32,000 bases of DNA from Akkermansia muciniphila ATCC BAA-835 (GCF_000020225.1 NC_010655.1:570001-602000); one strand, 5' to 3'. Numbered from the stretch's first letter, positions 4,278 to 24,164 are shown. Program-made: numbers and translations. The notes: generated by a model not told the origin, from the letters alone.

Positions 4278-5036
4278 ATGAGTCTGGTCATTAAAAATTT
4301 GCACGCCAACGTGCAAGGCACGGAAATACTTAAAGGCATCAATCTGGAAATTCCCAAGGGAGAGGTGCATGCAATCATGGGGCCCAACGGCTCCGGGAAA
4401 AGTACTTTATCCAAAGTTCTTTGCGGACATCCGGACTATGAGGTAACGGAGGGAGAAGCCTGGCTGGACGGACAGAACCTGCTGGACATGAGCATTGACG
4501 AACGCAGCAGGGCGGGACTCTTCCTGGCATTCCAGTACCCCATGGAAGTTCCCGGCGTTTCCAACGCCAACTTCCTTCGTGCGGCCATGCAGGCCCGCAT
4601 GCCCCATGGGGAGGAACTGGATGCGGTCACCTTCTACAAAACGCTCTATGCAAAAATGGACCAGCTCGGCATGGCCCGCAAATTCACGTCACGCGCCGTT
4701 AACGAAGGTTTCTCCGGGGGAGAGAAAAAGCGCAATGAAGTGCTGCAAATGCTTCTCCTGGATCCCCTCTATGCCATTCTGGACGAAACGGATTCCGGCC
4801 TGGACATAGATGCCCTCCGCATTGTCTCGGAAGGAGTCAACTCCATGCGTTCCCCTTTCCGGAGCTTCCTGGTCATCACCCACTACAAACGCCTGCTGGA
4901 CTACATCAGGCCGGATGTGGTCCATGTACTGGCTGACGGGCGGATTGTCCGGACCGGAGGCGGAGAACTGGTGGACGAACTGGAAAGCAGGGGATACGAG
5001 TTCCTGAAAGAAACGGAAACAGCGGAAAAGGCATAA
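4278..5036 (+). CDS. sufC: Fe-S cluster assembly ATPase SufC
   Basis: Walker [13 protein letters not shown] signature FSGGEKKR, Walker [14 protein letters not shown]. 252 aa, immediately upstream of sufB. Confidence 0.95.
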
Positions 5037-7802: not shown

Positions 7803-10061
7803 CTATCCCTCCTTTTCCGTCCTGATATTAACGCGCCGCTGCAAGAGAGCCGCCACAAGCAGAAACAGAGCAGTTCCCCCCATCATGCTGTAATACCATT
7901 CACGGTAAGGCGTATGGTACTGCAGGAGGATTTCCGTCTGCTGTTCCGAATCCGGAACAGAAACAAGAATAGAATAGCGCTCAGTACTGGATAAAGGAAG
8001 CTCTTCCCCCTTCCCGGTGCGGGCGCTCCATCCCCTGGAATAGCTCTCAAGAACAGACAATTCCTTTGTTCCTGGCGGCACGGTGACATGGATCTTATTA
8101 TTCGTTCTCCAATCCGGAACAACAGGAGAAAAATGATTCTCTTCCCCCTGGGTTCGGACAAAATAGCGTCCACGGTACAAGGGATTTTCCAGCAAGAAGA
8201 AATCTTCCGTTTCCTGAACCAGATTCCACCCGTCAAAAGACGGCCTTCCGGCTTTGGCATCACACAACAAATGAGAAATGCCGGCCATGGCATAATCTTT
8301 CGGATAATAATGTCCATCCGACAAAGGTCTCAGATATCTGGGCTGCACCGTTTCATAACCTGAGGCCAGCCTTATTCCATATGTGGATAAATGATTAGTA
8401 CATAAAAAATCCAAGTCATTATGAGGATTGACGATAACAACGGCACCATCCCCCACATGTCCGCGAAACTCGGACATCCATTCCGGTTCTTTATAAAGAT
8501 AGCCGCTTTCCGGTTTGTCGGAATAGGCAATCCATGAAGAAGAAAACACTATTTGTTCCCCAAAGGTACATAATACCACAAGTCCTGCCCACCACTTCGG
8601 ATAACGGCTGGATATATTCAGGCGGGAACAGGCCCAGCCCCCTACGCTGACCAGTAAAATCAATAAGGCATTGCGCCAATCCCAAATCATCAGCTGGTCC
8701 AGGAGACGCTCGCTTCTGAGCAAATACCAGGAATGACGGTATTTTTGCTGAGAAGTCGTTATGTTTCCGTCAATAAAGCTATGCAATTTTAACAGCAATG
8801 GTTCATGGAAACACTGAACTGCCACCGATACGGCAAGCCATATACACAAAATTCCAATTCCCCACCATGCAAGTCTGCGCCAGATAGGAAGAACCGGATG
8901 CCGCCTAAGGTCAAATAACTGCCATCCGGCAAGCCAGCTCATTCCAAAAGCCATCACAACCGTGGAACGTGAATAGAGGAAAGTGGAAAGAGGTGTGCAT
9001 GAAACAATTAAACTGACAAGAAAACAAAACTTGGCGGTCAACGGTGCCCGGCGGTTAAACAATGCCAGAACAGCCAGCACAAAAACAACTCCTCCACCAA
9101 ATTTGATATCGAATAAATCAGCGCCAATCACTTTGGAAATACTGATTGTCTGAGGAATGCCGAAGAGCGTCGGCATCACAGATGTGGCCAGAAAAGGAAT
9201 ATTTTCCAGCCCCCAGACAAACGGCAAGCTTTTACAGCCTTCCATGCGCGGCAGGGTGTCCACAAAAACATCCAAGGAAAGCAACGCCGCCAAAAATCCG
9301 GAGATCAAATAAAAAGATGATGATTTCAGAAAAACTTTCCAGGACCAGCGGTCTGCCCGTTTCCACCAATCCGCAAGAAACACGCACAGCACCAAAAGAA
9401 AAACAAAGAGACACGCTTGCAAATGGCCTCCTCTGAATCCGAGAACAATAAAGAGAATAGAGGGAAGATGCACCCATTTGTTTTTCCTTCTCCCTTCCAA
9501 CAGGGACCAGACAATCAACGGCGCCCAGATTATTCCACCAAGCCACCGGTCATATATCCACATAATAAACTGGGAATAAAAACTGAAACTCACAGCTCCC
9601 AGCAATACGTACGGAATAGGAATTCCCCTGGATTTCAGTAGAATGATCATCCCCAGCCCTGCGATAAAAAACTGCAGCAAGATTCCCGCATCCCATGCCG
9701 TCCAGAAAGGAAGAAAACCAAATAACCAATGATGCCAATCCCCCGGGCTTAACATGGTATTTTCCGGCAGTGAAGTCCCATTGTGAGTATAAGGGTTCCA
9801 TCCCATATACCCATCACTTTGCCAGGACTGCTGCATCGCCCAGCTATAAGGTAAATATTGAGAAGCCCCATCTACGTTATATTGGTTATGGACTTCCTCC
9901 ATTGGCTGAGTTGCGAATGGTTTGAACAGGCATTCCACACAATCCACCGGGGCTAAAACCTTTCCTCCAAACACGGCAGGAGCAAAAAAAAGCAGTACAA
10001 GTACTGCCCAAATTATTATCCCCCACCACAAGGGAATTTTTCTATTTTTTTTACAATTCAT
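7803..10061 (-). CDS. Large polytopic membrane protein, YfhO-like (GT-C-type glycosyltransferase candidate)
   Basis: 752 aa: an N-terminal TM helix, an extracytoplasmic loop with ...NVDGASQYLPYSW..., many further TM segments, and a soluble C-terminal ~200 aa ending in a last TM. The architecture resembles the YfhO family. The family call is from memory. Confidence 0.6.
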   Translation of the reverse strand: MNCKKNRKIPLWWGIIIWAVLVLLFFAPAVFGGKVLAPVDCVECLFKPFATQPMEEVHNQYNVDGASQYLPYSWAMQQSWQSDGYMGWNPYTHNGTSLPENTMLSPGDWHHWLFGFLPFWTAWDAGILLQFFIAGLGMIILLKSRGIPIPYVLLGAVSFSFYSQFIMWIYDRWLGGIIWAPLIVWSLLEGRRKNKWVHLPSILFIVLGFRGGHLQACLFVFLLVLCVFLADWWKRADRWSWKVFLKSSSFYLISGFLAALLSLDVFVDTLPRMEGCKSLPFVWGLENIPFLATSVMPTLFGIPQTISISKVIGADLFDIKFGGGVVFVLAVLALFNRRAPLTAKFCFLVSLIVSCTPLSTFLYSRSTVVMAFGMSWLAGWQLFDLRRHPVLPIWRRLAWWGIGILCIWLAVSVAVQCFHEPLLLKLHSFIDGNITTSQQKYRHSWYLLRSERLLDQLMIWDWRNALLILLVSVGGWACSRLNISSRYPKWWAGLVVLCTFGEQIVFSSSWIAYSDKPESGYLYKEPEWMSEFRGHVGDGAVVIVNPHNDLDFLCTNHLSTYGIRLASGYETVQPRYLRPLSDGHYYPKDYAMAGISHLLCDAKAGRPSFDGWNLVQETEDFFLLENPLYRGRYFVRTQGEENHFSPVVPDWRTNNKIHVTVPPGTKELSVLESYSRGWSARTGKGEELPLSSTERYSILVSVPDSEQQTEILLQYHTPYREWYYSMMGGTALFLLVAALLQRRVNIRTEKEG

Positions 10062-15002: not shown

Positions 15003-15229
15003 TAAAGGTATAAAACCTTATTGTCTTATTTCCCCGCCCGGGAAGCCCGCATAAATCAAGTTTTTTTCTCCCCTATCGCGTCACATTCGCCCGCTTTTTC
15101 CTCATGTGCTCGGCGTTATGTATGCGGGTGATCCCGTTGTAAGCACTTTTGAATTTTGAAGCATGGTATCAACAGGAGCTGCAAATACAATATTTCCGCA
15201 ATGAATTTGACAATAAAGGAGCAATGCTT

Positions 15230-15805
15230 ATGGAACCAGTCAATTTGTTGAAAGCTAAAAATCGTGATGAGTTAAGGCAATGGCTTGAACAGAATCATAA
15301 GACTGAAAAAGAATGCTGGGTTGTTGTAAAACGTGGTAAACCAAAAGGGAATAACACATTTTGGTATATTGACGCAGTAGAAGAAGCTATGTGTTTCGGC
15401 TGGATTGATAGTACAACAAAAAAACTCGATAATGGTATCACTGCACAAAAACTGGCTCCCCGCAGAACAGTTAGCTTATGGTCTGAACTAAATAAGGAAC
15501 GCTGCCGCAGGATGGAAAAATTAGGAAAAATGACGGAAGCCGGACGTTCTGCTTTACCCGATATGTCATCAGCAGGTTTTATCATAGATAAAGAAATTCT
15601 AAAAGCATTACAAACTGATAACGAAGTGTGGGAAAATTTTCTTAAATTTCCACCTCTTTATCAGAGGGTACGCATAGATACTATACAGATAAAAAAGAAA
15701 CAACCACAACTTTTTCAAAGAAGATTACAAAAGTTGCTTGAGAATACAAAAAAAGGAATAATGTACGGCGAATGGAATGATAATGGGCGATTATTAGACT
15801 ATTAG
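15230..15805 (+). CDS. YdeI/OmpD-associated family protein (low-GC, likely horizontally acquired)
   Basis: ...ELRQWLEQNHKTEKECWVVV...YIDAVEEAMCFGWIDSTTKKLDNG...LAPRRTVSLWSELNKERCRRMEKLGKMTEAG matches my memory of the YdeI family. AAGGAG at 15215-15220 favours the ATG at 15230 over the track start at 15149. Confidence 0.7.
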   Translation: MEPVNLLKAKNRDELRQWLEQNHKTEKECWVVVKRGKPKGNNTFWYIDAVEEAMCFGWIDSTTKKLDNGITAQKLAPRRTVSLWSELNKERCRRMEKLGKMTEAGRSALPDMSSAGFIIDKEILKALQTDNEVWENFLKFPPLYQRVRIDTIQIKKKQPQLFQRRLQKLLENTKKGIMYGEWNDNGRLLDY

Positions 15806-15892
15806 CTCCGGCAACCACGTTTTTTAAGACAAAAGATGCAACTTTTCTTCAGGACCGGGGTTTGTAAAGATACCTTGCAATCTCATACCACC

Positions 15893-16966
15893 ATGATACG
15901 CCTCACCCCGCTCCGCAAACGTCCGGCGCTTTCCGCGCTGGTGCTTCTCCTCCTGGGATCCGGCTTCTGCCAGGCTCAGGAAATGCTTACCGATTCCGCA
16001 AGAAAGGAAGCTTCCGAATGGCTTAAGGAAGTCAAAGCCGGCTACCTGAACACCAGCTCTTCCCGTATCCAGAAGGCCGTGGCCGCCCTTACCGCGGCCA
16101 TCAGCACGGAAAACGCCGCCATGAAACTTTACGTGGATGCCATGAAGGACCGGTTTCTGAACCCCACCAGCATGATGTCCCGCATGCTGAACCGGGGAGG
16201 CGGGGGCGGCTTCCGCATGATGCGCATGCCGGGTTCCGGAGGGAGGGGAGGCAACAGCAGCAAGCCTGACAGCCCCAGCACCGCCTTTTCCAACTGGCGC
16301 AAGCAGAATACGGGAAACAACGTAGCTCCCGGCTTTAAAAAAGCCCTTCAAATCCAGTGCAAATGGATGCTGCTTTGCCTGAGAAAAGCGGACGCGGAAA
16401 AAAACGAACGCGACCTTAACGTTTCCTCCAGCGTCCTGTCCATGCTGGATGAAGTGGCCGCCAACGCCAAGGATGTAGGCGAACAGCTTCCCATGGTAAG
16501 CGGAGCCAGCGAAGTCATCCGCACCTACCTGAACATTGGAGACTACCGTTCGGAAACCCTGCCGGACAACCTGATGGATCTCAATACCATCTTCGACCGC
16601 GTACTGCTGGCTCCCTACAAGGAGAAAAAGGATGTGGAAAACTTCCGGAAACTCTGGAACAAACGCATCGGCCTGGAAGCGACTCTGCTGCAAAACAACT
16701 CCGCCAGCGATAAAAAAACAGCGGAAGCAGAAAAAGCCGATTTCCTGGTTAAAAGACAGTGGGAACGGGAAAAGGCCTGCTTTGAACTCGGCGACCAGGT
16801 AGCGGCACTTGAAAAGATGAAAAGCCTGATTTCCGGCATCAAGGACCCTTCTGAAAAGCAGCGTGCCATCCGCGACCTGGAATTCCTGCTTCTTACCCCG
16901 GCGGAACAGGCGAAACTCCGCGAAGAGCGCATGAACAAACGCATGCCGGGCGGTCCTCGCTTTTAA
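15893..16966 (+). CDS. Secreted hypothetical protein, mostly alpha-helical, with a Met/Arg/Gly-rich low-complexity insert
   Basis: Signal peptide MIRLTPLRKRPALSALVLLLLGSGFCQAQE from the internal ATG at 15893. Its K/E/A/L-rich composition looks genuine, whereas the fully overlapping minus ORF 15824-16969 is F/R/G/H-rich (a shadow). Confidence 0.6.
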   Translation: MIRLTPLRKRPALSALVLLLLGSGFCQAQEMLTDSARKEASEWLKEVKAGYLNTSSSRIQKAVAALTAAISTENAAMKLYVDAMKDRFLNPTSMMSRMLNRGGGGGFRMMRMPGSGGRGGNSSKPDSPSTAFSNWRKQNTGNNVAPGFKKALQIQCKWMLLCLRKADAEKNERDLNVSSSVLSMLDEVAANAKDVGEQLPMVSGASEVIRTYLNIGDYRSETLPDNLMDLNTIFDRVLLAPYKEKKDVENFRKLWNKRIGLEATLLQNNSASDKKTAEAEKADFLVKRQWEREKACFELGDQVAALEKMKSLISGIKDPSEKQRAIRDLEFLLLTPAEQAKLREERMNKRMPGGPRF

Positions 16967-17002
16967 CAATCGTCGCCAAGCCCCAGCCTCCCTCCTTTCT
17001 CA

Positions 17003-17035
17003 TCCCCCGTTGCGTAACGCGCACCGGGGGATTTT
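17003..17035. terminator. Hairpin between convergent genes (likely terminator for the + strand gene)
   Basis: TCCCCCG (17003-17009) pairs with CGGGGGA (17025-17031), with an inner GCG/CGC stem, then TTTT (17032-17035). The T-tract is short and overlaps the stop of the minus gene. Confidence 0.45.
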
Positions 17036-18836
17036 ACATTGCGGAGAGCCGCATTTCCCTGACGGAGGCAGCTTCCTTCCTCCCGGGTTGGAACCATGTC
17101 TTGCGCAGGCGGTAAACGCGCACGCCCTGGATATTCTCATCCAGATGCCAGGCTGTGCGAACGCCGTGCTGCTCCCAGATATGGCGGCTGAGCATCCCCA
17201 TGAACTTGCTGTCCATATCGGAAACGTCACCTTGCGGAGTGAGACAGACAATGTACACATTATCCCTGCACAGGTTCAGGGAGGACTGCCCCTCCCACCC
17301 CATCTCCTTCAGTTTCCGCTGTACGGGTTTCAACGGAAAATTCCAGCCGCCCAGCGTGACAACGTTCTTCCGGGAACAGCTCCAGGCCTTGCGGAAAACA
17401 GACTGCCCCGGGGCCAGATCGTCAATAGTGCCGCCGGACATCTGGACGCAAAACAGGGAATCGGGCTCCCGGTCCACCCGCTCGCATAACAGGCGCCCGG
17501 CATCCGGGGAAAAAGATTCCAGATTAGCCTCCCACACGGCGGCGCACGCCTGGGACAAAGAAACGGAGAACGCGCAGAACATGGGCACGCCGCCCGCAAG
17601 AGCTCCCTTCCCCGTCCAGGTGATGCGGATGGGACGATATTTATCCGACCACAGCAGACACAGCCCTGCAATCAGGAACGTTGGATAAACTACGCGGAAA
17701 TACAGGCGGTCTATGCTGGCCATATACAGCAGAATCAGCACCAGCAGGGAGCCTACGCAGCACACCAGGGCCGGAGAATCCCCGCGCCGGAAAGAAACGC
17801 GGCATGCCAGACCGAACAAAATCCAGCAGGGGAGAAGATCCATAACGGAATCCCATGAAAACAGATGCAAGGCTTTCTCTCCACGGGCCCACGCCCTGGG
17901 CCAGAATTCACCTCCGTCCCGCGCCAACAGAAGCCTTTCCAGATAATCCGTATTGAATACATCCATATCGCAATTGGTAAACATCCGGACCATCCTGATA
18001 TCGTTGGAGAACACGCCGTACTTTTCACACTGGTAGGCGCTCTCCTGCCTGATGGGACACGTGTCCGAGAGAAGGGCGCGGGCCTGGTTCCATGCCGCCA
18101 CGTCACATCCCTCCAGCACATTCCGGTGGGCGTATTTATTATATTCATTCAGGCTGAAGGACGCAATGAGCACACAGGCCAGAGCCAGCCAGAGACGACT
18201 GAGGGCAAACAGCTTTTCCCTGGACGGCCTGAGCCCTTCCAGGCTGCCTGCCAGCAGGATGGCCCCCCAGAAAGCATCGCACACCAGGGCGGCATCCAGC
18301 CGGACCATGCTGCCCAGCACGCACAGGAATACTCCCGCGCACCACCCCCTCCAGGAAGAGCCGTACTTCAAACACGCCAGCACACCTGTAAATCCCGTCA
18401 GAAAGGCGGCATGGCTGAATTGCAGAGCGGCGTAAAAGCCCGGCATGATCAGAAGCCACACCAGCAGCAGAACCAGCGTATTGAAATCATATCTGCGCGC
18501 CTTGCGGGCATGCGCCGTCAGCATCGTGAAAATGGCCGCGCCGCTGGACAACGTGGCAAGCGCCAGAAACACAGGCCAGACGGACACCCCGCCAAGGACA
18601 GGCGCAGCTTTCAACAGAAGCCCGGTCAACAGGGGATTGACGAAAATGACATGGGCATCCGCATAAGAGGGATCCCCCCATCCGTCAAGCACGGACGCAA
18701 TCACCAGATCGTCATTGGACTGGTACGCCACGCCCACAAGGCTCCAGGCCAGAACCAGAAGCAACAGGTTGAACCATACGGGATGGAGCAGAGGAAAAAG
18801 CGATACCCATCTCCAAATCTGTTTCAACATAAGCAA
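17034..18836 (-). CDS. Orphan 600-aa polytopic membrane protein (candidate GT-C-like terminal transferase of the upstream cluster)
   Basis: About 10 hydrophobic segments, a DD pair in the first predicted external loop (AYQSNDDLVIASVLDGWGD), a Cys-rich ~110-aa loop in the middle, and a soluble ~170-aa C-terminal domain. It has the same orientation as the GT2/flippase genes and lies 122 nt downstream of them, with no obvious terminator between. Confidence 0.7.
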   Translation of the reverse strand: MLMLKQIWRWVSLFPLLHPVWFNLLLLVLAWSLVGVAYQSNDDLVIASVLDGWGDPSYADAHVIFVNPLLTGLLLKAAPVLGGVSVWPVFLALATLSSGAAIFTMLTAHARKARRYDFNTLVLLLVWLLIMPGFYAALQFSHAAFLTGFTGVLACLKYGSSWRGWCAGVFLCVLGSMVRLDAALVCDAFWGAILLAGSLEGLRPSREKLFALSRLWLALACVLIASFSLNEYNKYAHRNVLEGCDVAAWNQARALLSDTCPIRQESAYQCEKYGVFSNDIRMVRMFTNCDMDVFNTDYLERLLLARDGGEFWPRAWARGEKALHLFSWDSVMDLLPCWILFGLACRVSFRRGDSPALVCCVGSLLVLILLYMASIDRLYFRVVYPTFLIAGLCLLWSDKYRPIRITWTGKGALAGGVPMFCAFSVSLSQACAAVWEANLESFSPDAGRLLCERVDREPDSLFCVQMSGGTIDDLAPGQSVFRKAWSCSRKNVVTLGGWNFPLKPVQRKLKEMGWEGQSSLNLCRDNVYIVCLTPQGDVSDMDSKFMGMLSRHIWEQHGVRTAWHLDENIQGVRVYRLRKTWFQPGRKEAASVREMRLSAM

Positions 18837-18958
18837 ATTTCCTGACTTTACAGACTGTTTTCCCTGTCCGGGGACGCATACTAGGAACGGGGAAAATGAA
18901 AGTCAAGAGCCGATCCGGATGAACAAACCGGAGGGGCTAAAAGGCTGCAACCTCTTCC

Positions 18959-19303
18959 TTAACGGTTCAGGCAGACGATAATGCCCGCGATAATCATCGC
19001 GTTGCCGCCCACTTTGCGCATGGTGATCGGTTTTCCGAAAAAAATCCGGTCAAACAAAAGGATATATACATATGCGGAGCATTCCAGCATATTCACCGTA
19101 ATCATCGGCAGGTGGGACAGGCAGTAAAACGTCAGCAGGCAGCAGCCCAAAAAAACGGAATATGCCGCCATCGTGGCCGGATTCACGAAATAGGCAAGGC
19201 CGGTCAGCCGGTCATTCATGGCGGACTTTTTCAAAACCACCTGTGTGCAGGAAGCAAGAAAAACGGAAAACAGGTTCAGCCCAATATAAAATTCCTCACT
19301 CAT
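18959..19303 (-). CDS. Small 4-TM DMT/SMR-like membrane protein, ArnE-like flippase subunit
   Basis: 114 aa from the internal ATG (MSEEFYIGLNLFSVFLASCTQVVLKKSA...GGNAMIIAGIIVCLN). Size and pattern resemble ArnE. Its start overlaps the preceding gene by 8 nt (ATGAGTGA). Confidence 0.65.
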   Translation of the reverse strand: MSEEFYIGLNLFSVFLASCTQVVLKKSAMNDRLTGLAYFVNPATMAAYSVFLGCCLLTFYCLSHLPMITVNMLECSAYVYILLFDRIFFGKPITMRKVGGNAMIIAGIIVCLNR

Positions 19304-19664
19304 GCGCCTCCTCCGTGGAAACCAAAATAATACCCCCGATGACCAGCGCCGCTCCCGCCGCCAGCGTCCAGGAAAGAGCCTCCCCCAGGCAAAGCCATGC
19401 CAGCAGGATACCCCAGATGACAACGGCGGAACGGTTGGCATAAGCCACACCCAGGTTGAATTTTTTCAGCATGACCTGCCATCCCGCCGCATAAATGCCC
19501 AACAGGAACAGCACGCCGGCCAGCAGGGCAAACCGGCGCCAGTCCGTCCAGCCGTAGGGGGCAGCCATGCGCCCCAGCACGGTATTCAGCGCGTAAACGA
19601 TAAACAGCAGGTGCAGAATCAGATAGTTGATCATGAAAGAAAAAAAGAGACGGGAACAATTCAC
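19296..19664 (-). CDS. Small 4-TM DMT/SMR-like membrane protein, ArnF-like flippase subunit
   Basis: ...LLAGVLFLLGIYAAGWQVMLKKFNLGVAYANRSAVVIWGILLAWLCLGEALSW...VIGGIILV is an EamA/SMR-like half-transporter pattern. The GTG start at 19664 overlaps the GT2 stop (GTGA). An alternative ATG lies at 19634. Confidence 0.65.
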   Translation of the reverse strand: MNCSRLFFSFMINYLILHLLFIVYALNTVLGRMAAPYGWTDWRRFALLAGVLFLLGIYAAGWQVMLKKFNLGVAYANRSAVVIWGILLAWLCLGEALSWTLAAGAALVIGGIILVSTEEAHE

Positions 19665-20599
19665 TCATACCGGCGCGCTACCACCACGGCGGGCCTGTGC
19701 TTGGTTTCCTTATAAATCTTGGAAATGTAAATGCCGATAACGCCCAGGCTCATCAGAATCAAGCCTCCGACCAGCCAGATGGAGGCCACGGAAGAGGCCC
19801 AGCCGGGAGGGGCTACATTATACAGAAGCTGGCGCACAACCACCCAGGCGACATACAGCATGGCTACTAGGGTGACCGCCAGGCCAAAGTATGAAATATA
19901 CACCAACGGCCTGGCGCTGTAGGAAACCACGGAATTCACCGCCAGCGCCATTTTTTTGCGGAAAGTGTAGGTCGTTGGAGAAGAGGATGCTTTCTTCACC
20001 CTGCACGGCACCTGCCGGAAACCGGCGGAAACGCACAGCCCAAAGAAAAAAGGCTCCCGGTCCTGGAATTTCAGCATCTCCCGCAGAAAACGCGCGCTCA
20101 TCAGCCGCGCCGTAACCATATTCCTGGTAATCTGCTGATCGGAAAGCAAATTAAACAATGTGTAGAACAATTCTCCGGAAACGGCTTCAAACAAGCCGCC
20201 CTTCCTCTTCTCCTGCACCCCGTACACCACATCCGCCCCGGTAGAATCCATCTCACGGGAAAAATTAACCAGCCACTCGGGAGATTCCTCCAAATCACTG
20301 TCAATCAAGAATACGCGCTCTCCCCGGGCTTCTTCGCAGGCCACGTACATGGCCAGATGATGGCCGAAGTTGCGGGATAAGTCCACCACGCGCACCCGGC
20401 CGTCCTTCTCCCGCTCCTTCAACGCCTGTTCCAGACCGTCCCTTGGGCAGCCGTCATTCACCAGCACCACCTCCGTGCAGGAGGGGTCATAACCCGCCTC
20501 AAGCGCAGCGGCGAAACTGCGGGAACAGAACTCCGCCAGATAACCGCCCGTACAATACACGGTAGCCACAATGGACAATTGAACCTGTGGATCAGTCAT
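19661..20599 (-). CDS. Polyprenyl-phosphate glycosyltransferase, GT2 family (ArnC/GtrB/CsbB-like)
   Basis: GT-A domain (LSIVATVY..., VNDGC, LSRNFGHHLA, DSDLEE) plus two C-terminal TM helices and GIYISKIYKETKHRP, collinear with my memory of E. coli ArnC. The start ATG at 20599 overlaps the GNAT stop (ATGA). Confidence 0.85.
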   Translation of the reverse strand: MTDPQVQLSIVATVYCTGGYLAEFCSRSFAAALEAGYDPSCTEVVLVNDGCPRDGLEQALKEREKDGRVRVVDLSRNFGHHLAMYVACEEARGERVFLIDSDLEESPEWLVNFSREMDSTGADVVYGVQEKRKGGLFEAVSGELFYTLFNLLSDQQITRNMVTARLMSARFLREMLKFQDREPFFFGLCVSAGFRQVPCRVKKASSSPTTYTFRKKMALAVNSVVSYSARPLVYISYFGLAVTLVAMLYVAWVVVRQLLYNVAPPGWASSVASIWLVGGLILMSLGVIGIYISKIYKETKHRPAVVVARRYE

Positions 20600-21096
20600 A
20601 ACGCTTTTACATACATGAGAACGCGCTTCCTTTCCCCGCTTTTCTCGCACACCTCGTCCTTTTCCGGAACACGGGCAAAACCCATGCGCTCATGAAAACG
20701 CACGGAAGCCGCATTGTCCTCCAGAATCCGGGCATATAACCGTTCCAGACCCAGCTCCCCTGCGGCCAGCTCCATCATCCCGGCATATGCGGCGGAAGCC
20801 GGGCGCAGTTCCCTGAATGCCCTGTCGTAAAGATAAATGCCTATCTCTCCGCAACGCGTATTCCGGTCAAACCAGGGCAGGTAAACCAGACCCAGCGGAA
20901 CCTGGTCCGCATAAATCACGCAGGCGCGGGCATCCTCCCCGCGGACGTTCCTTTCCAGCCACGCCCGATGCTGCTCCTCCGTTACCTGGTCCAACAAAAA
21001 AAACGGGGTGATCTTTTCGGAATTGCGCCACACGCGCAGGCGGCTGCGCATGGCCTCATCCACATCAGACACGTTGACCAGGCAAATTTTCATCAT
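20596..21096 (-). CDS. GNAT N-acetyltransferase, PseH-like (acts on 4-amino-4,6-dideoxy sugar nucleotides)
   Basis: 166 aa. The LRVWRNSEKITPFF...EEQHRAWLERN pattern matches the PseH-type WRN motif, and the GNAT core is ...RFHERMGF. The start overlaps the aminotransferase stop (ATGA at 21093-21096). Confidence 0.75.
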   Translation of the reverse strand: MMKICLVNVSDVDEAMRSRLRVWRNSEKITPFFLLDQVTEEQHRAWLERNVRGEDARACVIYADQVPLGLVYLPWFDRNTRCGEIGIYLYDRAFRELRPASAAYAGMMELAAGELGLERLYARILEDNAASVRFHERMGFARVPEKDEVCEKSGERKRVLMYVKAL

Positions 21097-22232
21097 GATT
21101 CAACTCCCTCCAGCCCGAAGCCGGCCCGCAACACCTCCCGGCAACCTTCTTCCCCCAAATCGTAATACAAAGGAAGCCTCAGCAACGTATCGCTGGTACG
21201 GTCCGTATGAGGCATGGCCCCGGCAGAACGCCCGAATCTCATCCCGGCAGGGGAGGAATGGAGGGGAATGTAGTGGAACACCGCTTTAATCCCGTGCTCC
21301 GCCAGCTTGTTGATCAAGCGCGTGCGCTCCTCCATGGAACGGAGCAACACGTAATACATGTGGGCGTTATGCGTGCAATGCTCCGGAATGCACGGACGCC
21401 GCAACACCCCCTGTTCTTCCAATGGAGCCAGCGCGCGGTGGTACATATCCCACCACTTCAGCCTTTCCCCGTTGATCTCCTGCCCGTGTTCCAGCTGGGC
21501 ATACAAATAAGCGGCGATCATCTCTCCGGGCAGATAGGAGGAACCTACGTCCACCCAGGTGTATTTGTCCACCTGCCCGCGGAAAAACCTGGCACGGTTG
21601 GTCCCTTTTTCCCGGATAATCTCCGCGCGTTCCATCAGGGAGGGGTCATTCACCAGCAGGGCTCCTCCCTCTCCGGAAATGACATTCTTGGTCTCGTGGA
21701 AACTGTAACAGCCCAAATGGCCGATGGAGCCGAGCCGACGCCCTCTGTAGCAGGAGCCGACGCCCTGGGCAGCGTCTTCAATCACATACAGGCGATGCCT
21801 CTCGGCAATTTCCATGATTGCATCCATTTCACAAGCCACGCCCGCGTAATGAACCACGCAAATGGCGCGGGTGCGGTCCGTGATGGCCGCTTCTATCAGC
21901 GTCTCGTCAATATTCTGCGTATCCGGCCTGATATCCACGAATACAGGAACGCCGCCGCGCAGCACAAACGCGTTCGCCGTGGAGACGAACGTATAGGAAG
22001 GCATGATAATCTCGTCGCCCGGGCGGCAGTCGATCAACAGGGCCGCCATCTCCAGCGCGGCGGTTCCGGAATGAACCAGCAGAACCTTTCCGGCGCCGGT
22101 GCGTTCCGCAAGCAGTTCATGGCATTTTTTCGTGTAATAGCCGTCTCCGCATAAATGGGCGCGCTGGATGGCGTCCCGGATATAATCCAATTCGGGACCG
22201 TGCTGGTGAGGTTGGTTGAAAGGAATCTCCAT
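21093..22232 (-). CDS. wecE: dTDP-4-amino-4,6-dideoxyhexose (Fuc4N-type) transaminase, WecE/RffA-like, DegT/DnrJ/EryC1 family
   Basis: Long collinear identity with my memory of E. coli WecE: MEIPFNQP..., IIMPSYTFVSTANAFVLRGG, DIRPDTQNIDETLIEAAITDRTRAI, VHYAGVACEMDAIM, FHETKN (PLP Lys), AEIIREKGTNRARFFRGQVDKYTWVDVGSSYL, VFHYIPLHSSPAG. I trimmed the track ORF (22277) to the ATG at 22232. Confidence 0.85.
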   Translation of the reverse strand: MEIPFNQPHQHGPELDYIRDAIQRAHLCGDGYYTKKCHELLAERTGAGKVLLVHSGTAALEMAALLIDCRPGDEIIMPSYTFVSTANAFVLRGGVPVFVDIRPDTQNIDETLIEAAITDRTRAICVVHYAGVACEMDAIMEIAERHRLYVIEDAAQGVGSCYRGRRLGSIGHLGCYSFHETKNVISGEGGALLVNDPSLMERAEIIREKGTNRARFFRGQVDKYTWVDVGSSYLPGEMIAAYLYAQLEHGQEINGERLKWWDMYHRALAPLEEQGVLRRPCIPEHCTHNAHMYYVLLRSMEERTRLINKLAEHGIKAVFHYIPLHSSPAGMRFGRSAGAMPHTDRTSDTLLRLPLYYDLGEEGCREVLRAGFGLEGVES

Positions 22233-22283
22233 GGCTTCAGAAAAGACCGGCCCATGACGGACGCCCGGCGCGGGCATGCCGAT

Positions 22284-22318
22284 CCCGTGCGGAAGGCGTT
22301 CCCCGCCTTCCGCACGGG
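22284..22318 (-). other. Very strong GC-rich hairpin (14-bp perfect stem, 7-nt loop) with no U-tract on either strand
   Basis: CCCGTGCGGAAGGC (22284-22297) pairs with GCCTTCCGCACGGG (22305-22318). It lies between the stop of the acetyltransferase gene (22354) and the wecE-like start (22232). Confidence 0.8.
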
Positions 22319-22353
22319 GAGACCCTACTATGAACGAAGGGCTGAAAACAAGC

Positions 22354-23475
22354 CTAGACCTTGATGAAGGTCCGGTTTTTGTACATGTAATACAACACGC
22401 CCCAAATCAGGGCGTAATTGCACAGGTAAAAGACAAACCTGTCCGCATCCCCGAAGCACTCGCTAAACCCGGCAAACAATACCCGGGAGAAATTGCCCGT
22501 AGGGGGGCACAGAGATACCCACATGTACACGAAAATGGCATTGCTCCCTATTACGGAGAAAAAGAATGTCAACCAGTTCAATTTCAGCACATCCGTCAGC
22601 AGATAGAACAGGAACAGCAGAAAATAGCACCATCCCGCCGCCCACAATACCATGGAACTGGTGAACAAACGCTTGATCATCGGAAAATCCAGGCTCCAGG
22701 CATATCCCAGCGCCAGGCAGCCCGCGCCCGCACATAACAGCCACGCCAGCTTTTTCCCGTGCCCCTGCACCCGCTTCAGAATCTGGCCGCCCAGCAGACC
22801 GAGCATGGTCATGGCGCCAAAACCGAACTGCGCCAGAATCCACGCATAATTCGTTCCATCCTGCCAGTTTCCCATCAGGTATTTATCCAGCAGCAGGGCC
22901 AGATTCCTCCCCGGTTCAAGCATTCCTGCCGCACAGGAACCCACCGCGGGGTCAGAAAAGGAAACAAACTTCATGACCAGCCAGTACACAGCCAGCAGCC
23001 CCCCCGTTGCCGCTACCTGCCACCGGATGGACAGATGAAGAAGGCAAATGGCCGCAATCAGGTAGCCGGAGGCGATGGCCTGGAGCGTATTGCAGTACAG
23101 GGACATCCTGGACGGTTCAAAACTCAGCAGATTGCCCTGCACCACCATGCCCAGCAAAAAAAGCACCACTACCCGCCTGGCAACCTTCAGGTAAATCTTC
23201 CACAGAGGTTCCGAACCGATGCGTTTGGAAAAGGAAAACGGCATGGCCGTTCCCACAATGAACAAAAAGAGGGGCATCACCAGATCCCAGGCGGCGAATC
23301 CCTCCCAAGCCACGTGCGTGCTGTGCTTCACCAGCCACTCGGGGCTCCGGTCGTAAAAAAGATTGATGCCGGCCACAACCAGAGCCAGGCCCCCGGTCAG
23401 GAAAAACATGTCAAATCCCCGCAGGGCGTCAATGGCCGCAATTCTCTGCGGCCTGGTATCGGAAAGTGAACTCAT
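22354..23475 (-). CDS. Transmembrane acyltransferase, heparan-alpha-glucosaminide N-acetyltransferase (HGSNAT)/DUF5009-like
   Basis: 373 aa with about 10-11 TM segments. The N-terminal RIAAIDALRGFDMFFLTGG and ...FAAWDLVMPLFLFIVGTAMPFS are typical of this family, as I recall it. Confidence 0.65.
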   Translation of the reverse strand: MSSLSDTRPQRIAAIDALRGFDMFFLTGGLALVVAGINLFYDRSPEWLVKHSTHVAWEGFAAWDLVMPLFLFIVGTAMPFSFSKRIGSEPLWKIYLKVARRVVVLFLLGMVVQGNLLSFEPSRMSLYCNTLQAIASGYLIAAICLLHLSIRWQVAATGGLLAVYWLVMKFVSFSDPAVGSCAAGMLEPGRNLALLLDKYLMGNWQDGTNYAWILAQFGFGAMTMLGLLGGQILKRVQGHGKKLAWLLCAGAGCLALGYAWSLDFPMIKRLFTSSMVLWAAGWCYFLLFLFYLLTDVLKLNWLTFFFSVIGSNAIFVYMWVSLCPPTGNFSRVLFAGFSECFGDADRFVFYLCNYALIWGVLYYMYKNRTFIKV

Positions 23476-23651
23476 GGCAACATTCCAACTACGGCACCAC
23501 GTCCGCCAACCTTTCCAAAGACTTTCTTTTTCTAAGGCTCCGCAAAGAAAAACGGCTGTTTCCGGAAAAACCTGTCCTTCACGGCAACTCCGTCATGATG
23601 CCTTTCTCCATATTCCCTGCCCCGCATTTCATGCTATGCTGCCCCTGCAAC

Positions 23652-24164
23652 ATGACCATGGGGAACGACCAATCCGGCGAACGCGACAGCTTCCGGAATA
23701 TTGAAACTTACGCTCGCATGAAAATGGATGAACTTGGTCTGGCAGACTGGCAATTCGGCTGGGACCGGGCCAAAAGAAGGCTGGGAGTGTGCCGTCTGCT
23801 GGAAAAAAGCATTACGATTTCCATTCACTTCGTCCGCGCCAACCTGGAGACCCCTCATGAAATCCGTGACACGATTCTGCATGAGATCGCCCACGCCCTG
23901 GCGTGGACCCGCCACGGAGAACGCACCCACGGACCGCGATGGAAACAAATTTGCAGAGAAATAGGGGCTGTCCCGTGTGCCTCCGCCAAACCGGACGCCA
24001 TCCGCGTCACCACGTACAAATATCTCCTGCGTCTGAAAACGACGGGAGAAATCGTCGGCAAATACCACCGCCGCCCCTCTTTCGCCAAATACCTCAAGCG
24101 CATGGCCCTGAAAGGCCGCCCCGATACGCTGGGCCAGCTGGAACTGGCGCCTTATGAAGAATAA
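23652..24164 (+). CDS. SprT-like zinc metalloprotease domain protein
   Basis: ...WQFGWDRAKRRLGVCRLLEKSITISIHF... followed by an HExxH site (ILHEIAHALAW) and HGPRWKQICREIG. The start is uncertain (ATGs at 23652, 23658, 23718). The track ORF from 23466 is probably too long. Confidence 0.65.
   Translation: MTMGNDQSGERDSFRNIETYARMKMDELGLADWQFGWDRAKRRLGVCRLLEKSITISIHFVRANLETPHEIRDTILHEIAHALAWTRHGERTHGPRWKQICREIGAVPCASAKPDAIRVTTYKYLLRLKTTGEIVGKYHRRPSFAKYLKRMALKGRPDTLGQLELAPYEE

What the first reader, a model, noticed from the sequence alone, without database searches (positions are those of the whole stretch)
17034..22232. Arn/Gtr-like lipid-carrier glycosylation operon built around a dTDP-4-acetamido-4,6-dideoxyhexose module
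Six same-strand genes are tightly packed. They are a WecE-like transaminase, a PseH-like GNAT, an ArnC/GtrB-like GT2 with two C-terminal TM helices, two ~115-aa 4-TM ArnF/ArnE-like proteins and a 600-aa polytopic membrane protein. Junctions seen directly: ATGA overlaps at 21093-21096 and 20596-20599, GTGA at 19661-19664, an 8-nt overlap at 19296-19303, then a 122-nt gap without an obvious terminator. Established knowledge gives three comparators. The Arn pathway uses an aminotransferase (ArnB), transient N-acylation (ArnA), a GT2 that loads undecaprenyl phosphate (ArnC), a flippase (ArnE/F) and a GT-C transferase (ArnT). Gtr and CsbB/YfhO systems use the same GT2 + flippase + GT-C logic. WecE plus an acetyltransferase makes dTDP-Fuc4NAc, which in enterobacterial common antigen synthesis is consumed by a cytoplasmic transferase (WecF). 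My inference is that here the 4-acetamido-4,6-dideoxyhexose is loaded on a polyprenyl phosphate, flipped, and transferred in the periplasm onto lipid A/LOS, another glycan or a protein. No ArnD-like deacylase is present, so the sugar would stay N-acetylated and neutral. I am not aware of a described pathway with this combination.
Basis: partly seen in the sequence, partly recalled or inferred. Interest (0 to 1): 0.78.

Follow-up and report, generated by a model that had tools for sequence, protein, structure and literature searches.

The report
Akkermansia lipid-carrier sugar decoration gene cluster
Akkermansia muciniphila carries a conserved gene set that most likely makes an N-acetylated amino-dideoxy sugar, loads it on a membrane lipid carrier, flips it outward and attaches it to an unknown surface molecule using an enzyme from a family that has no name yet.

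Summary
The window is A. muciniphila ATCC BAA-835, and all six minus-strand genes exist with the stated overlaps.

The parts are:
- a true WecE ortholog (62% identical to E. coli WecE; above NCBIfam's equivalog cut-off);
- a GNAT, fused to WecE in a relative;
- a GtrB/ArnC-type GT2 with two C-terminal hydrophobic segments;
- two overlapping small DMT proteins remotely homologous to ArnE;
- a 598-aa protein with no Pfam, NCBIfam or PDB sequence match.

A confident model of the 598-aa protein (pLDDT 90) matches only GT-C glycosyltransferases among its best PDB hits, and it has an invariant Asp after the first helix. Its family has 458 representatives, and every source name seen was "hypothetical". 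In unrelated bacteria it sits next to WecE orthologs (5 of 10 contexts), GtrB-type GT2s (7 of 10) and small DMT pairs (4 of 10).

This is a three-component periplasmic glycosylation system with a new donor class and a new GT-C family.

- the last gene has its own conserved promoter-like element;
- the GNAT is not a PseH member;
- the published LOS lacks this sugar, so LOS is an unlikely acceptor.

The acceptor is unknown and nothing is biochemically shown.

The parts
21093..22232 (-). WecE ortholog. PLP-dependent dTDP-4-keto-6-deoxy-D-glucose 4-aminotransferase, 379 aa (ACD04339).
   Evidence: NCBIfam NF008687: 615 bits (cut-off 375). TIGR02379: 601 bits (cut-off 434.85). PDB 4PIW: 506 bits, next family 175. 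62% identity to E. coli WecE over 367 aa. ArnB only 29%. Start codon conserved.
20596..21096 (-). GNAT N-acyltransferase, 166 aa (ACD04338). Inferred to N-acetylate the dTDP-4-amino sugar.
   Evidence: Pfam Acetyltransf_3: 58.4 bits. Best NCBIfam hit PseH, 65.8 bits, below the 93.1 cut-off. ATGA overlap with WecE. Fused in frame to WecE as one 545-aa protein in relative L001. Not similar to E. coli WecD/RffC.
19661..20599 (-). GtrB/ArnC-type GT2, 312 aa (ACD04337). Inferred polyprenyl-phosphate sugar synthase.
   Evidence: Pfam Glycos_transf_2: 66 bits. Full-length match to GtrB 5EKP (E 3.3e-38, residues 6-308 against 26-327) and to ArnC structures (E 2.5e-18). Two C-terminal hydrophobic segments, 230-260 and 267-296. 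DSD motif read in the translation.
19296..19664 (-). Small 4-helix DMT/EamA half-transporter 1, ArnE-like. 111 aa from ATG 19631, or 122 aa from GTG 19664.
   Evidence: Pfam EamA: 25.4 bits (gathering score 28.2). Profile A3 against E. coli ArnE: probability 94.8%, E 5e-8 over 95 columns. Four hydrophobic stretches.
18959..19303 (-). Small DMT/EamA half-transporter 2, 114 aa (ACD04335). Inferred partner of the previous protein in a heterodimeric flippase.
   Evidence: Pfam EamA: 27.5 bits. Weak ArnF/ArnE NCBIfam hits. Profile A4 against ArnE: 92%. 8-nt overlap with the preceding gene. The same adjacent pair is found in L007, L015, L016 and L019.
18878..18906 (-). Conserved sigma-70-like promoter element (TTGACT, 17 nt, TAGTAT) in the gap before the last gene.
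   Evidence: It is the only promoter-like hit in 16800-23700. CTTGACTTTC and TAGTAT are invariant in 8 Akkermansia-lineage loci while the rest of the gap diverges. Its function is not shown.
17034..18830 (-). 598-aa polytopic membrane protein (ACD04334, 'hypothetical protein'). Predicted GT-C-fold glycosyltransferase of an unnamed family, with a C-terminal extracytoplasmic domain.
   Evidence: No Pfam, NCBIfam or PDB sequence hit. AlphaFold2 model: pLDDT 90.1, pTM 0.91. The 13 best PDB fold matches are all GT-C enzymes: ArnT, an unnamed chain of a secretory-translocon entry (9n9j_I, probably the oligosaccharyltransferase subunit), DPY19, Pmt4, PglB, AftA, AftB and EmbC. D40, R177 and D256 are invariant, and D41, N65, R251, D277, D288 and R375 near-invariant, across 70 members.
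22354..23475 (-). NagX/HGSNAT-like (DUF5009) membrane acetyltransferase directly upstream on the same strand. Whether it belongs to the system is uncertain.
   Evidence: NCBIfam NagX: 177 bits, below the 480 cut-off. Pfam DUF5009: 36.9 bits. Syntenic in all Akkermansia loci, but so is the whole neighbourhood. No similarity to the Acyl_transf_3 genes in distant clusters.

Best explanation
This is a three-component, lipid-carrier-dependent periplasmic glycosylation system with its own donor-sugar module. The proposed steps are below. All are inferred from homology and context; none is shown biochemically.

1. RmlA and RmlB, encoded elsewhere, supply dTDP-4-keto-6-deoxy-D-glucose.
2. The WecE ortholog aminates C4 to give dTDP-4-amino-4,6-dideoxy-D-galactose (dTDP-Fuc4N).
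3. The GNAT N-acetylates it with acetyl-CoA to give dTDP-Fuc4NAc.
4. The GtrB/ArnC-type GT2 transfers the sugar to undecaprenyl phosphate on the cytoplasmic face.
5. The two small ArnE-like DMT proteins, as a heterodimer, flip Und-P-Fuc4NAc.
6. The 598-aa GT-C-fold enzyme uses the invariant Asp40 (with Asp41) in its first periplasmic loop to transfer the sugar to an acceptor outside the cytoplasm.

The sugar stays N-acetylated and neutral.

The acceptor is unknown. My ranking is a surface polysaccharide (capsule/EPS) first, a periplasm-exposed protein second, and LOS least likely.

The GT-C gene has its own conserved promoter-like element, so the transferase may be expressed partly independently of the donor genes.
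For: Identity of the parts: as listed under 'parts'.

GT-C fold: the model has pLDDT 90.1. The 13 best PDB matches are all GT-C enzymes, with probability 0.60-1.00 (0.87 or more for 12 of them). An invariant N-D-D follows helix 1. The charge pattern of the loops, read, gives N-in, a 100-residue hydrophilic loop at 229-328 holding R251, D256, D277 and D288, and a C-terminal soluble domain on the outside.

Functional coupling:
- Tight overlaps between the first five genes.
- WecE and the GNAT are fused in L001.
- The cluster is kept in 7 other Akkermansia-lineage genomes.

Independent recurrence. The GT-C proteins compared here are only 21-23% identical in the distant loci. Across 10 distant contexts:
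- WecE orthologs of 58-62% identity (49% over a fragment cut by the contig end in L007) sit beside it in L003/4, L007, L016, L018 and L019.
- Full-length GtrB-type GT2s are present in L003, L006, L007, L015, L016, L018 and L019.
- Small EamA pairs are present in L007, L015, L016 and L019.
- RmlA-like and RmlB-like genes are present in L015.

Precursor supply: an RmlA gene, AMUC_RS01170, is annotated and expressed in this strain (PMC7671984).

The three-component logic is established for Gtr, Arn and pentofuranose systems (PMC11127046) and for PgfS/PgfM1 protein glycosylation (PMC12041528).
Against: - No biochemical or genetic data exist for any of the six genes. I found no paper on them.
- Fold matches are modest: Foldseek E about 1e-3 and TM-score 0.38-0.44.
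- There is no sequence-profile link to ArnT or to a YfhO-like protein.
- The GNAT's substrate and acyl donor are unassigned.
- The C4 configuration rests on orthology to WecE. TIGR02379 is labelled for the gluco product.
- No 4-amino-4,6-dideoxyhexose was reported in the LOS of this strain.
- The composition of other surface glycans is unknown, so no product is known.
- Two family members (L002, L005) are orphans without a nearby GT2.
- RmlB was not checked.
Confidence: 0.7

Rival explanations
1. Arn-like modification of lipid A or the LOS core. The same machinery is used, but the GT-C enzyme puts the sugar on lipid A phosphates or on core sugars, changing charge or shielding as ArnT does.
For: The best PDB fold match is ArnT. 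The flippase pair resembles ArnE. By established stereochemistry, D-Fuc4N is the 6-methyl homologue of L-Ara4N. The order of enzyme types mirrors arnB, arnA (acylation), arnC, arnE/F and arnT.
Against: The published LOS of this strain contains only Kdo, Hep, Glc, Gal, Man, Fuc, GlcNAc and GalNAc. Its lipid A carries plain phosphates (PMC11436972). There is no ArnD-like deacylase, so the sugar would be neutral and give no charge benefit. In distant genomes the family sits in polysaccharide or teichoic-acid-type loci.
Confidence: 0.1
2. Extracytoplasmic protein O-glycosylation. The GT-C enzyme transfers the sugar from Und-P to Ser/Thr-rich regions of periplasmic or surface proteins, as PgfS/PgfM1 and GtrB/PgtC2 do in streptococci.
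For: The best NCBIfam hit of the GT2 is PgfS (143.6 bits), which works with a GT-C enzyme on protein disordered regions (PMC12041528). PMT, DPY19 and PglB are among the fold matches. A secreted protein of unknown function with a Gly/Ser-rich stretch (15836-16966) is the conserved convergent neighbour of the GT-C gene. This holds even in L002, where the rest of the cluster is absent.
Against: The PgfS hit is far below its cut-off of 500. No glycoprotein carrying such a sugar is known in Akkermansia. Distant contexts point more often to polysaccharide loci.
Confidence: 0.2
3. Conventional cytoplasmic assembly. The GT2 adds Fuc4NAc to an Und-PP-linked repeat unit, as WecF does in enterobacterial common antigen. 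The 598-aa protein is a Wzy/WaaL-like polymerase or ligase, and the small proteins are unrelated efflux pumps.
For: WecE plus an acetyltransferase feeds exactly such a pathway in E. coli. Three of 70 family members give weak hits to Wzy_C or O-antigen_lig, with E from 1e-4 to 0.05. One source labels small protein 2 'small multidrug resistance pump'.
Against: The GT2 has the full GtrB/ArnC architecture, including the C-terminal membrane helices. There is no initiating phosphoglycosyltransferase, Wzx or chain-length regulator in the cluster. None of the top 50 fold matches is described as a WaaL, Wzy or SEDS protein. The GT2 + EamA pair + family-member trio recurs in four unrelated loci.
Confidence: 0.07

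Closest known systems
Arn pathway (ArnB, ArnA, ArnC, ArnD, ArnE/F, ArnT) for L-Ara4N on lipid A
   Same: It uses a 4-aminotransferase of the DegT family, N-acylation of the nucleotide amino sugar, a GT2 that loads undecaprenyl phosphate, a pair of small DMT proteins as flippase, and a GT-C transferase. The sugar has the same ring stereochemistry, because D-Fuc4N is L-Ara4N plus a C6 methyl (established chemistry).
   Different: The nucleotide is dTDP, not UDP. The aminotransferase is WecE (29% identical to ArnB). Acylation is by a GNAT rather than the ArnA formyltransferase. There is no ArnD deacylase, so the sugar stays neutral. The GT-C protein has no sequence similarity to ArnT. ArnC, ArnE and ArnF equivalog models are far below their cut-offs. 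LOS is not the evident acceptor.
Gtr (GtrA/GtrB/Gtr*), CsbB/GtcA/YfhO and PgfS/PgfM1 three-component systems
   Same: A GtrB-type GT2 (E 3e-38 to GtrB 5EKP), a flippase and a GT-C enzyme that decorates a glycan or protein outside the cytoplasm.
   Different: Those systems use common UDP sugars (Glc, GlcNAc, GalNAc) and need no dedicated sugar-synthesis genes. GtrA and GtcA belong to a different flippase family. The GT-C enzymes there are Gtr*- or YfhO-type, not this family.
Enterobacterial common antigen Fuc4NAc branch (RffH, RffG, WecE, WecD, WecF)
   Same: It has the same aminotransferase (62% identity) and the same predicted product after N-acetylation, dTDP-Fuc4NAc.
   Different: In ECA the sugar is added in the cytoplasm by WecF to Und-PP-linked lipid II. 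The acetyltransferase WecD is unrelated to this GNAT. No WecF, WzxE or WzyE is present here.
Pentofuranose three-component system of Citrobacter youngae (founding GT136; PMC11127046)
   Same: It is a recent precedent where a new donor class and a new GT-C family were defined together from an O-antigen locus.
   Different: It has a different donor chemistry (PRPP-derived polyprenyl-phosphoribose), a MATE flippase and a different GT-C family.

Membership tests
WecE (dTDP-4-amino-4,6-dideoxygalactose transaminase, NF008687 / TIGR02379) | Score above the curated equivalog cut-off, and full-length similarity to characterised WecE. | tested here: met
   615 bits against 375, and 601 against 434.85. 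62% identity over 367 aa to E. coli WecE. PDB WecE 506 bits against 175 for the next family.
WecE | Catalytic activity and galacto configuration of the product. | not testable with these tools
   Needs an enzyme assay with dTDP-4-keto-6-deoxyglucose and NMR of the product.
PseH (TIGR03585) | Score above the curated cut-off. | tested here: not met
   65.8 bits against 93.1. It is a GNAT (Acetyltransf_3, 58.4 bits) but not a PseH equivalog.
WecD/RffC (dTDP-Fuc4N acetyltransferase) | Sequence similarity to E. coli WecD. | tested here: not met
   BLASTP E 0.033 over 31 residues. No NCBIfam hit.
Polyprenyl-phosphate glycosyltransferases of GT2 (GtrB/ArnC/DPMS type) | GT-A domain with a DXD motif, plus a C-terminal pair of membrane helices, alignable end to end with GtrB. 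| tested here: met
   5EKP: E 3.3e-38, residues 6-308 against 26-327. ArnC: E 2.5e-18. Hydrophobic segments at 230-260 and 267-296. DSD motif in the translation.
ArnC (NF007986) and PgfS (NF047588) equivalogs | Score above the curated cut-off. | tested here: not met
   ArnC: 74.6 against 529. PgfS: 143.6 against 500.
ArnE/ArnF flippase subunits | Score above the equivalog cut-offs. | tested here: not met
   16-18 bits against cut-offs of 92-99.
ArnE/ArnF-like small DMT pair (works like) | Two adjacent proteins of about 110 aa with four helices, of the DMT/EamA superfamily, detectably homologous to ArnE. | tested here: met
   EamA: 25.4 and 27.5 bits, just under the gathering score of 28.2. hhalign against ArnE: 94.8% (E 5e-8) and 92.1%. 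Against ArnF only 18-74%. 8-nt gene overlap.
GT-C glycosyltransferases | GT-C fold of the membrane domain. | tested here: met
   Model pLDDT 90.1, pTM 0.91. PDB ranks 1-13 are all GT-C, from about seven families, with probability 0.60-1.00, TM-score 0.25-0.44 and best E 1.3e-3. This is a predicted structure, not a solved one.
GT-C glycosyltransferases | Conserved acidic residue in the first extracytoplasmic loop after helix 1. | tested here: met
   D40 is invariant and D41 at least 90% conserved in 70 sequences with 20% mean column identity. The side of the membrane is inferred from the charge distribution, not measured.
GT-C glycosyltransferases | Membership of a named GT-C sequence family (PMT_2, YfhO, ArnT, STT3 and so on). 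| tested here: not met
   No family is matched by more than 2 of 70 members in Pfam. NCBIfam gave only 6 of 70 weak hits, to a 'putative glycosyltransferase' model. hhalign against ArnT and the YfhO-like protein gave probability below 1%.
Three-component periplasmic glycosylation system | A polyprenyl-phosphate GT, a flippase and a GT-C enzyme encoded together. | tested here: met
   All three are adjacent here and in 7 other Akkermansia-lineage loci. The trio recurs in L007, L015, L016 and L019.
Three-component periplasmic glycosylation system | A lipid-linked monosaccharide donor, and transfer outside the cytoplasm. | not testable with these tools
   Needs lipid mass spectrometry and mutant analysis.

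The most novel reading that the evidence does not exclude
The 598-aa protein founds a new GT-C family whose members, across Verrucomicrobiota, Firmicutes, Fibrobacterota and others, are dedicated to transferring N-acylated 4-amino-4,6-dideoxyhexoses from a polyprenyl-phosphate carrier. With WecE, a variable N-acylation cassette (GNAT, ATP-grasp, MaoC, or an ACP/KASIII set), a GtrB-type GT2 and an ArnE-like pair, it would form a widespread and so far unrecognised class of extracytoplasmic glycan decoration. In A. muciniphila it would put Fuc4NAc on a surface polysaccharide or protein that has not yet been chemically described and could affect host recognition.
Probability: 0.45. Interest if true: 0.72.

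Novelty: new variant of a known kind. Interest (0 to 1): 0.6.

Why it matters
A. muciniphila is a heavily studied gut symbiont. Apart from its LOS, the composition of its surface glycans is 'mainly unknown' (PMC13343947). This cluster predicts a specific, unreported sugar (a 187-Da N-acetyl-amino-dideoxyhexose) on its envelope, and it names the genes to delete to find it.

More generally, it assigns a fold, a catalytic motif and a likely substrate class to a protein family with 458 representative clusters. That family has no Pfam or NCBIfam model, and every source name I saw for a member was 'hypothetical protein'. It would also extend the three-component glycosylation principle to dTDP-derived amino-dideoxy sugars.

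Tried and rejected
1. Pfam, NCBIfam and PDB sequence searches of the 598-aa protein, alone and as a 70-member profile, gave nothing usable.

2. The first AlphaFold run, with 12 close sequences, failed (pLDDT 47). Only the 70-sequence alignment gave a usable model.

With the close alignment it returned only Akkermansia.

4. The word-indexed protein search with the diverse profile did not get beyond Akkermansia.

5. hhalign of the family profile against E. coli ArnT and the window's YfhO-like protein showed no relation.

6. Literature searches were unproductive.
- A search by guessed locus tags (Amuc_0495-0500; the mapping from ACD accessions is uncertain) found nothing relevant.
- 'viosamine' with 'undecaprenyl phosphate' found no paper.
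- 'Fuc4NAc', 'undecaprenyl phosphate' and 'GT-C' found only ECA and general papers.
- An Akkermansia glycoproteome search returned only unrelated papers.
- One search was rejected for syntax.

7. The supplement of the LOS paper, which holds its gene table S6, is not held.

8. I tested whether the upstream NagX-like gene corresponds to the Acyl_transf_3 genes seen in distant clusters. There was no similarity, so its membership stays open.

9. Rfam and tRNA scans of the window found nothing.

10. I considered and rejected a Wzy/WaaL-type reading of the 598-aa protein (see rivals).

Full report
**Source and observation**

The window is Akkermansia muciniphila ATCC BAA-835 (MucT). Six of the proteins are exact matches to GenBank ACD04334, 04335 and 04337-04340. 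Related loci are all Akkermansia or Akkermansiaceae.

The overlaps were read directly:
- ATGA at 21093-21096 and at 20596-20599.
- ATGAGTGA at 19296-19303.

Three refinements:
- WecE starts at ATG 22232. That codon is conserved in eight loci. The upstream ATG 22277, used by some gene callers (394-aa versions), is lost or out of frame in some of them.
- Small protein 1 probably starts at ATG 19631, the start shared with relatives. That leaves a 30-nt gap rather than a GTGA overlap.
- The last gene starts at ATG 18830 (598 aa).

**The five recognisable parts**

Transaminase. It is a WecE ortholog, not just WecE-like.
- NCBIfam equivalog NF008687 scores 615 bits against a cut-off of 375. PseC, ArnB, LegC and DesI all fall far below their cut-offs.
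- PDB WecE scores 506 bits, against 175 for the next family.
- It is 62% identical to E. coli WecE and 29% to ArnB.

GNAT. It belongs to Acetyltransf_3. Its best named hit, PseH, is below the cut-off (65.8 against 93.1 bits). It is unrelated to E. coli WecD, and its only PDB hits are weak. Its link to WecE rests on the ATGA overlap and on an in-frame WecE-GNAT fusion (545 aa) in a relative whose GT-C protein is 63% identical.

GT2. It aligns end to end with the GtrB structure 5EKP (E 3.3e-38) and with ArnC structures. It has two C-terminal hydrophobic segments. This is the architecture of polyprenyl-phosphate sugar synthases.

Small proteins. Both score just under the EamA gathering score. Profiles built from them and their distant counterparts match E. 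coli ArnE with 94.8% and 92.1% probability. They fail the ArnE and ArnF equivalog cut-offs by a wide margin. So they work like ArnE/F, but they are not ArnE/F.

**The 598-aa protein**

It has no Pfam, NCBIfam or PDB sequence match. The word-indexed search found only close Akkermansia homologs.

An exhaustive profile search found 458 representative proteins at E of 0.001 or better. Most are 550-700 aa and match over the full length. None of the 70 I aligned has a meaningful Pfam or NCBIfam hit. Every source name I saw was 'hypothetical protein', from Akkermansia, Eubacterium and Fibrobacter.

In that alignment (20% mean column identity):
- D40, R177 and D256 are invariant.
- D41, N65, R251, D277, D288 and R375 are nearly invariant.

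With this alignment AlphaFold2 gave pLDDT 90.1 and pTM 0.91. The 13 best PDB fold matches are all GT-C glycosyltransferases from different families: ArnT, an unnamed chain of a secretory-translocon entry (9n9j_I, probably the oligosaccharyltransferase subunit), DPY19, Pmt4, PglB, AftA, AftB and EmbC. Unrelated transporters follow with probabilities near 0.1. The scores are modest (best E 1.3e-3, TM-score about 0.4), so this is a fold assignment and not a family assignment.

I read the topology from the helices and the positive-inside rule, using the sequence. The N-terminus is inside. The N-D-D motif (39-41) lies in the first outside loop. The conserved 229-328 loop and the C-terminal alpha/beta domain (about 440-580) are outside. 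This is the GT-C layout, with the catalytic Asp after helix 1. This step is inference.

**Independent support from unrelated genomes**

I looked up the contexts of ten distant family members whose contigs gave usable context. The GT-C proteins compared by tblastn are 21-23% identical to the window protein.

- WecE ortholog next to the family member: 5 of 10 contexts. Identity to the window WecE is 58% in L003/4, 63% in L016, 60% in L018 and 62% in L019. L007 has a fragment cut by the contig end, 49% identical.
- Full-length GtrB-type GT2: 7 of 10 contexts (L003, L006, L007, L015, L016, L018, L019).
- Adjacent pair of about 110-aa EamA proteins: 4 of 10 contexts (L007, L015, L016, L019).
- RmlA-like and RmlB-like genes: one context, L015, directly before the family member.
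- Orphans without a nearby GT2: two contexts, L002 and L005.

What varies is the tailoring set: a GNAT here, ATP-grasp enzymes, a MaoC dehydratase with a GNAT-like protein, or an AMP-ligase/ACP/KASIII set. That suggests different N-acyl groups on the same amino sugar.

Neighbouring genes in several of these loci are polysaccharide or teichoic-acid genes: TagF-like, a CDP-alcohol pathway, a Wzx-type flippase and many glycosyltransferases.

**Operon structure**

The first five genes overlap or nearly so, and are very likely co-transcribed.

The gap before the GT-C gene contains the only sigma-70-like match in the 6.9-kb region: TTGACT, 17 nt, TAGTAT at 18906-18878. One hit is not more than the 3.5 expected by chance. 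However, both hexamers are invariant in all eight Akkermansia-lineage loci while the surrounding gap sequence diverges, including in the most distant locus.

I take this as a conserved promoter for the transferase gene. No terminator-like site lies in the gap, so read-through may also occur. Neither has been measured.

**Acceptor**

The LOS of this very strain has been solved.
- Its sugars are Kdo, heptose, Glc, Gal, Man, Fuc, GlcNAc and GalNAc.
- Its lipid A has unsubstituted phosphates (PMC11436972).
- A second LOS paper also does not mention such a sugar.

So LOS is not the evident target, at least in culture. The composition of Akkermansia's other surface polysaccharides is stated to be mainly unknown (PMC13343947), and the cps1 capsule locus lies elsewhere.

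Given the polysaccharide contexts of distant family members, I rank a surface polysaccharide first. The GT2's best named relative is PgfS, which serves protein O-glycosylation, so I rank a protein second.

An RmlA gene is annotated and expressed in this strain (PMC7671984). The published LOS structure reports no rhamnose, so a dTDP-sugar consumer such as this cluster is plausible.

**Comparison with known systems, and novelty**

The logic is the established three-component scheme: Gtr, Arn, CsbB/YfhO, PgfS/PgfM and the pentofuranose systems. The closest parallel is Arn: a DegT aminotransferase, N-acylation, a GT2, a small DMT pair and a GT-C enzyme. The sugar is the 6-methyl homologue of L-Ara4N (established stereochemistry).

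The differences are:
- the dTDP/WecE origin of the sugar;
- a GNAT instead of a formyltransferase;
- no deacylase, so the product is neutral;
- a GT-C protein of an unnamed family;
- an acceptor that is not evidently lipid A.

I found no description of such a pathway, within the limits of the library. I therefore rate it a new variant of a known kind. Interest is moderately high because it gives a concrete, testable prediction in a much-studied symbiont and a function for a sizeable uncharacterised family.

Noticed in passing
window 7803-10061 (-): A 752-aa protein with weak YfhO/DUF6044 Pfam hits (32 bits, gathering score 28.5) lies in a low-GC stretch (0.41-0.47 against about 0.56). This is a second GT-C-like gene about 7 kb from the cluster. 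It is variable: 94% identical in L009, only about 50% identical in L010-L012, and not found in L013, L014 or L001 within the sequence held. L019 also carries a YfhO gene at the end of its cluster.
   Followed up: partly
window 22354-23475 (-): A NagX/HGSNAT-like (DUF5009) transmembrane acetyltransferase sits directly upstream on the same strand and is conserved in all Akkermansia loci. Distant clusters often carry an Acyl_transf_3 membrane acyltransferase between the GT2 and the GT-C or EamA genes (L003, L006, L016). No sequence similarity between the two was found. A weak terminator-like hairpin overlaps its stop codon.
   Followed up: partly
window 15836-16966 (+): A 376-aa protein with no Pfam hit, a signal-peptide-like N-terminus (from Met20) and a Gly/Ser-rich stretch. 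It is the convergent neighbour of the GT-C gene in every Akkermansia locus. In L002 it is 59% identical, and there the GT-C homolog (36%) stands without the rest of the cluster. It could be an acceptor or a partner. This is untested.
   Followed up: no
L001 6561-8198: WecE and the GNAT are fused into one 545-aa protein in a divergent Akkermansia-lineage MAG (GCA_965300605.1). In that genome the cluster directly abuts the SUF genes, so window 7.8-15.8 kb is variable content.
   Followed up: yes
window 15149-15805 (+): An OmdA/YdeI-like gene lies in a second low-GC patch (0.41). tblastn found no counterpart in any of the related loci, so it looks like a strain- or species-specific insertion between bioA and the secreted protein.
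   Followed up: partly
L015, L016, L018, L019 (distant loci): The tailoring genes next to WecE/GT2 differ between lineages: AMP-ligase + ACP + KASIII + acyltransferase; MaoC dehydratase + GNAT-like protein; ATP-grasp + HMGL-like + HAD; ATP-grasp + B12-binding + octopine-dehydrogenase-like. This points to a family of differently N-acylated 4-amino-4,6-dideoxyhexoses carried on lipid.
   Followed up: partly
P0044, P0146 and P0158 (811-860 aa family members): Some family members carry an extra N-terminal region of 200-290 residues with no Pfam hit. Its nature is unknown.
   Followed up: no
P0013 (554 aa): A metagenomic protein is 99% identical to 62% of the 598-aa protein but carries a PF02698 (DUF218) domain. 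It is probably an assembly or gene-call chimera.
   Followed up: no
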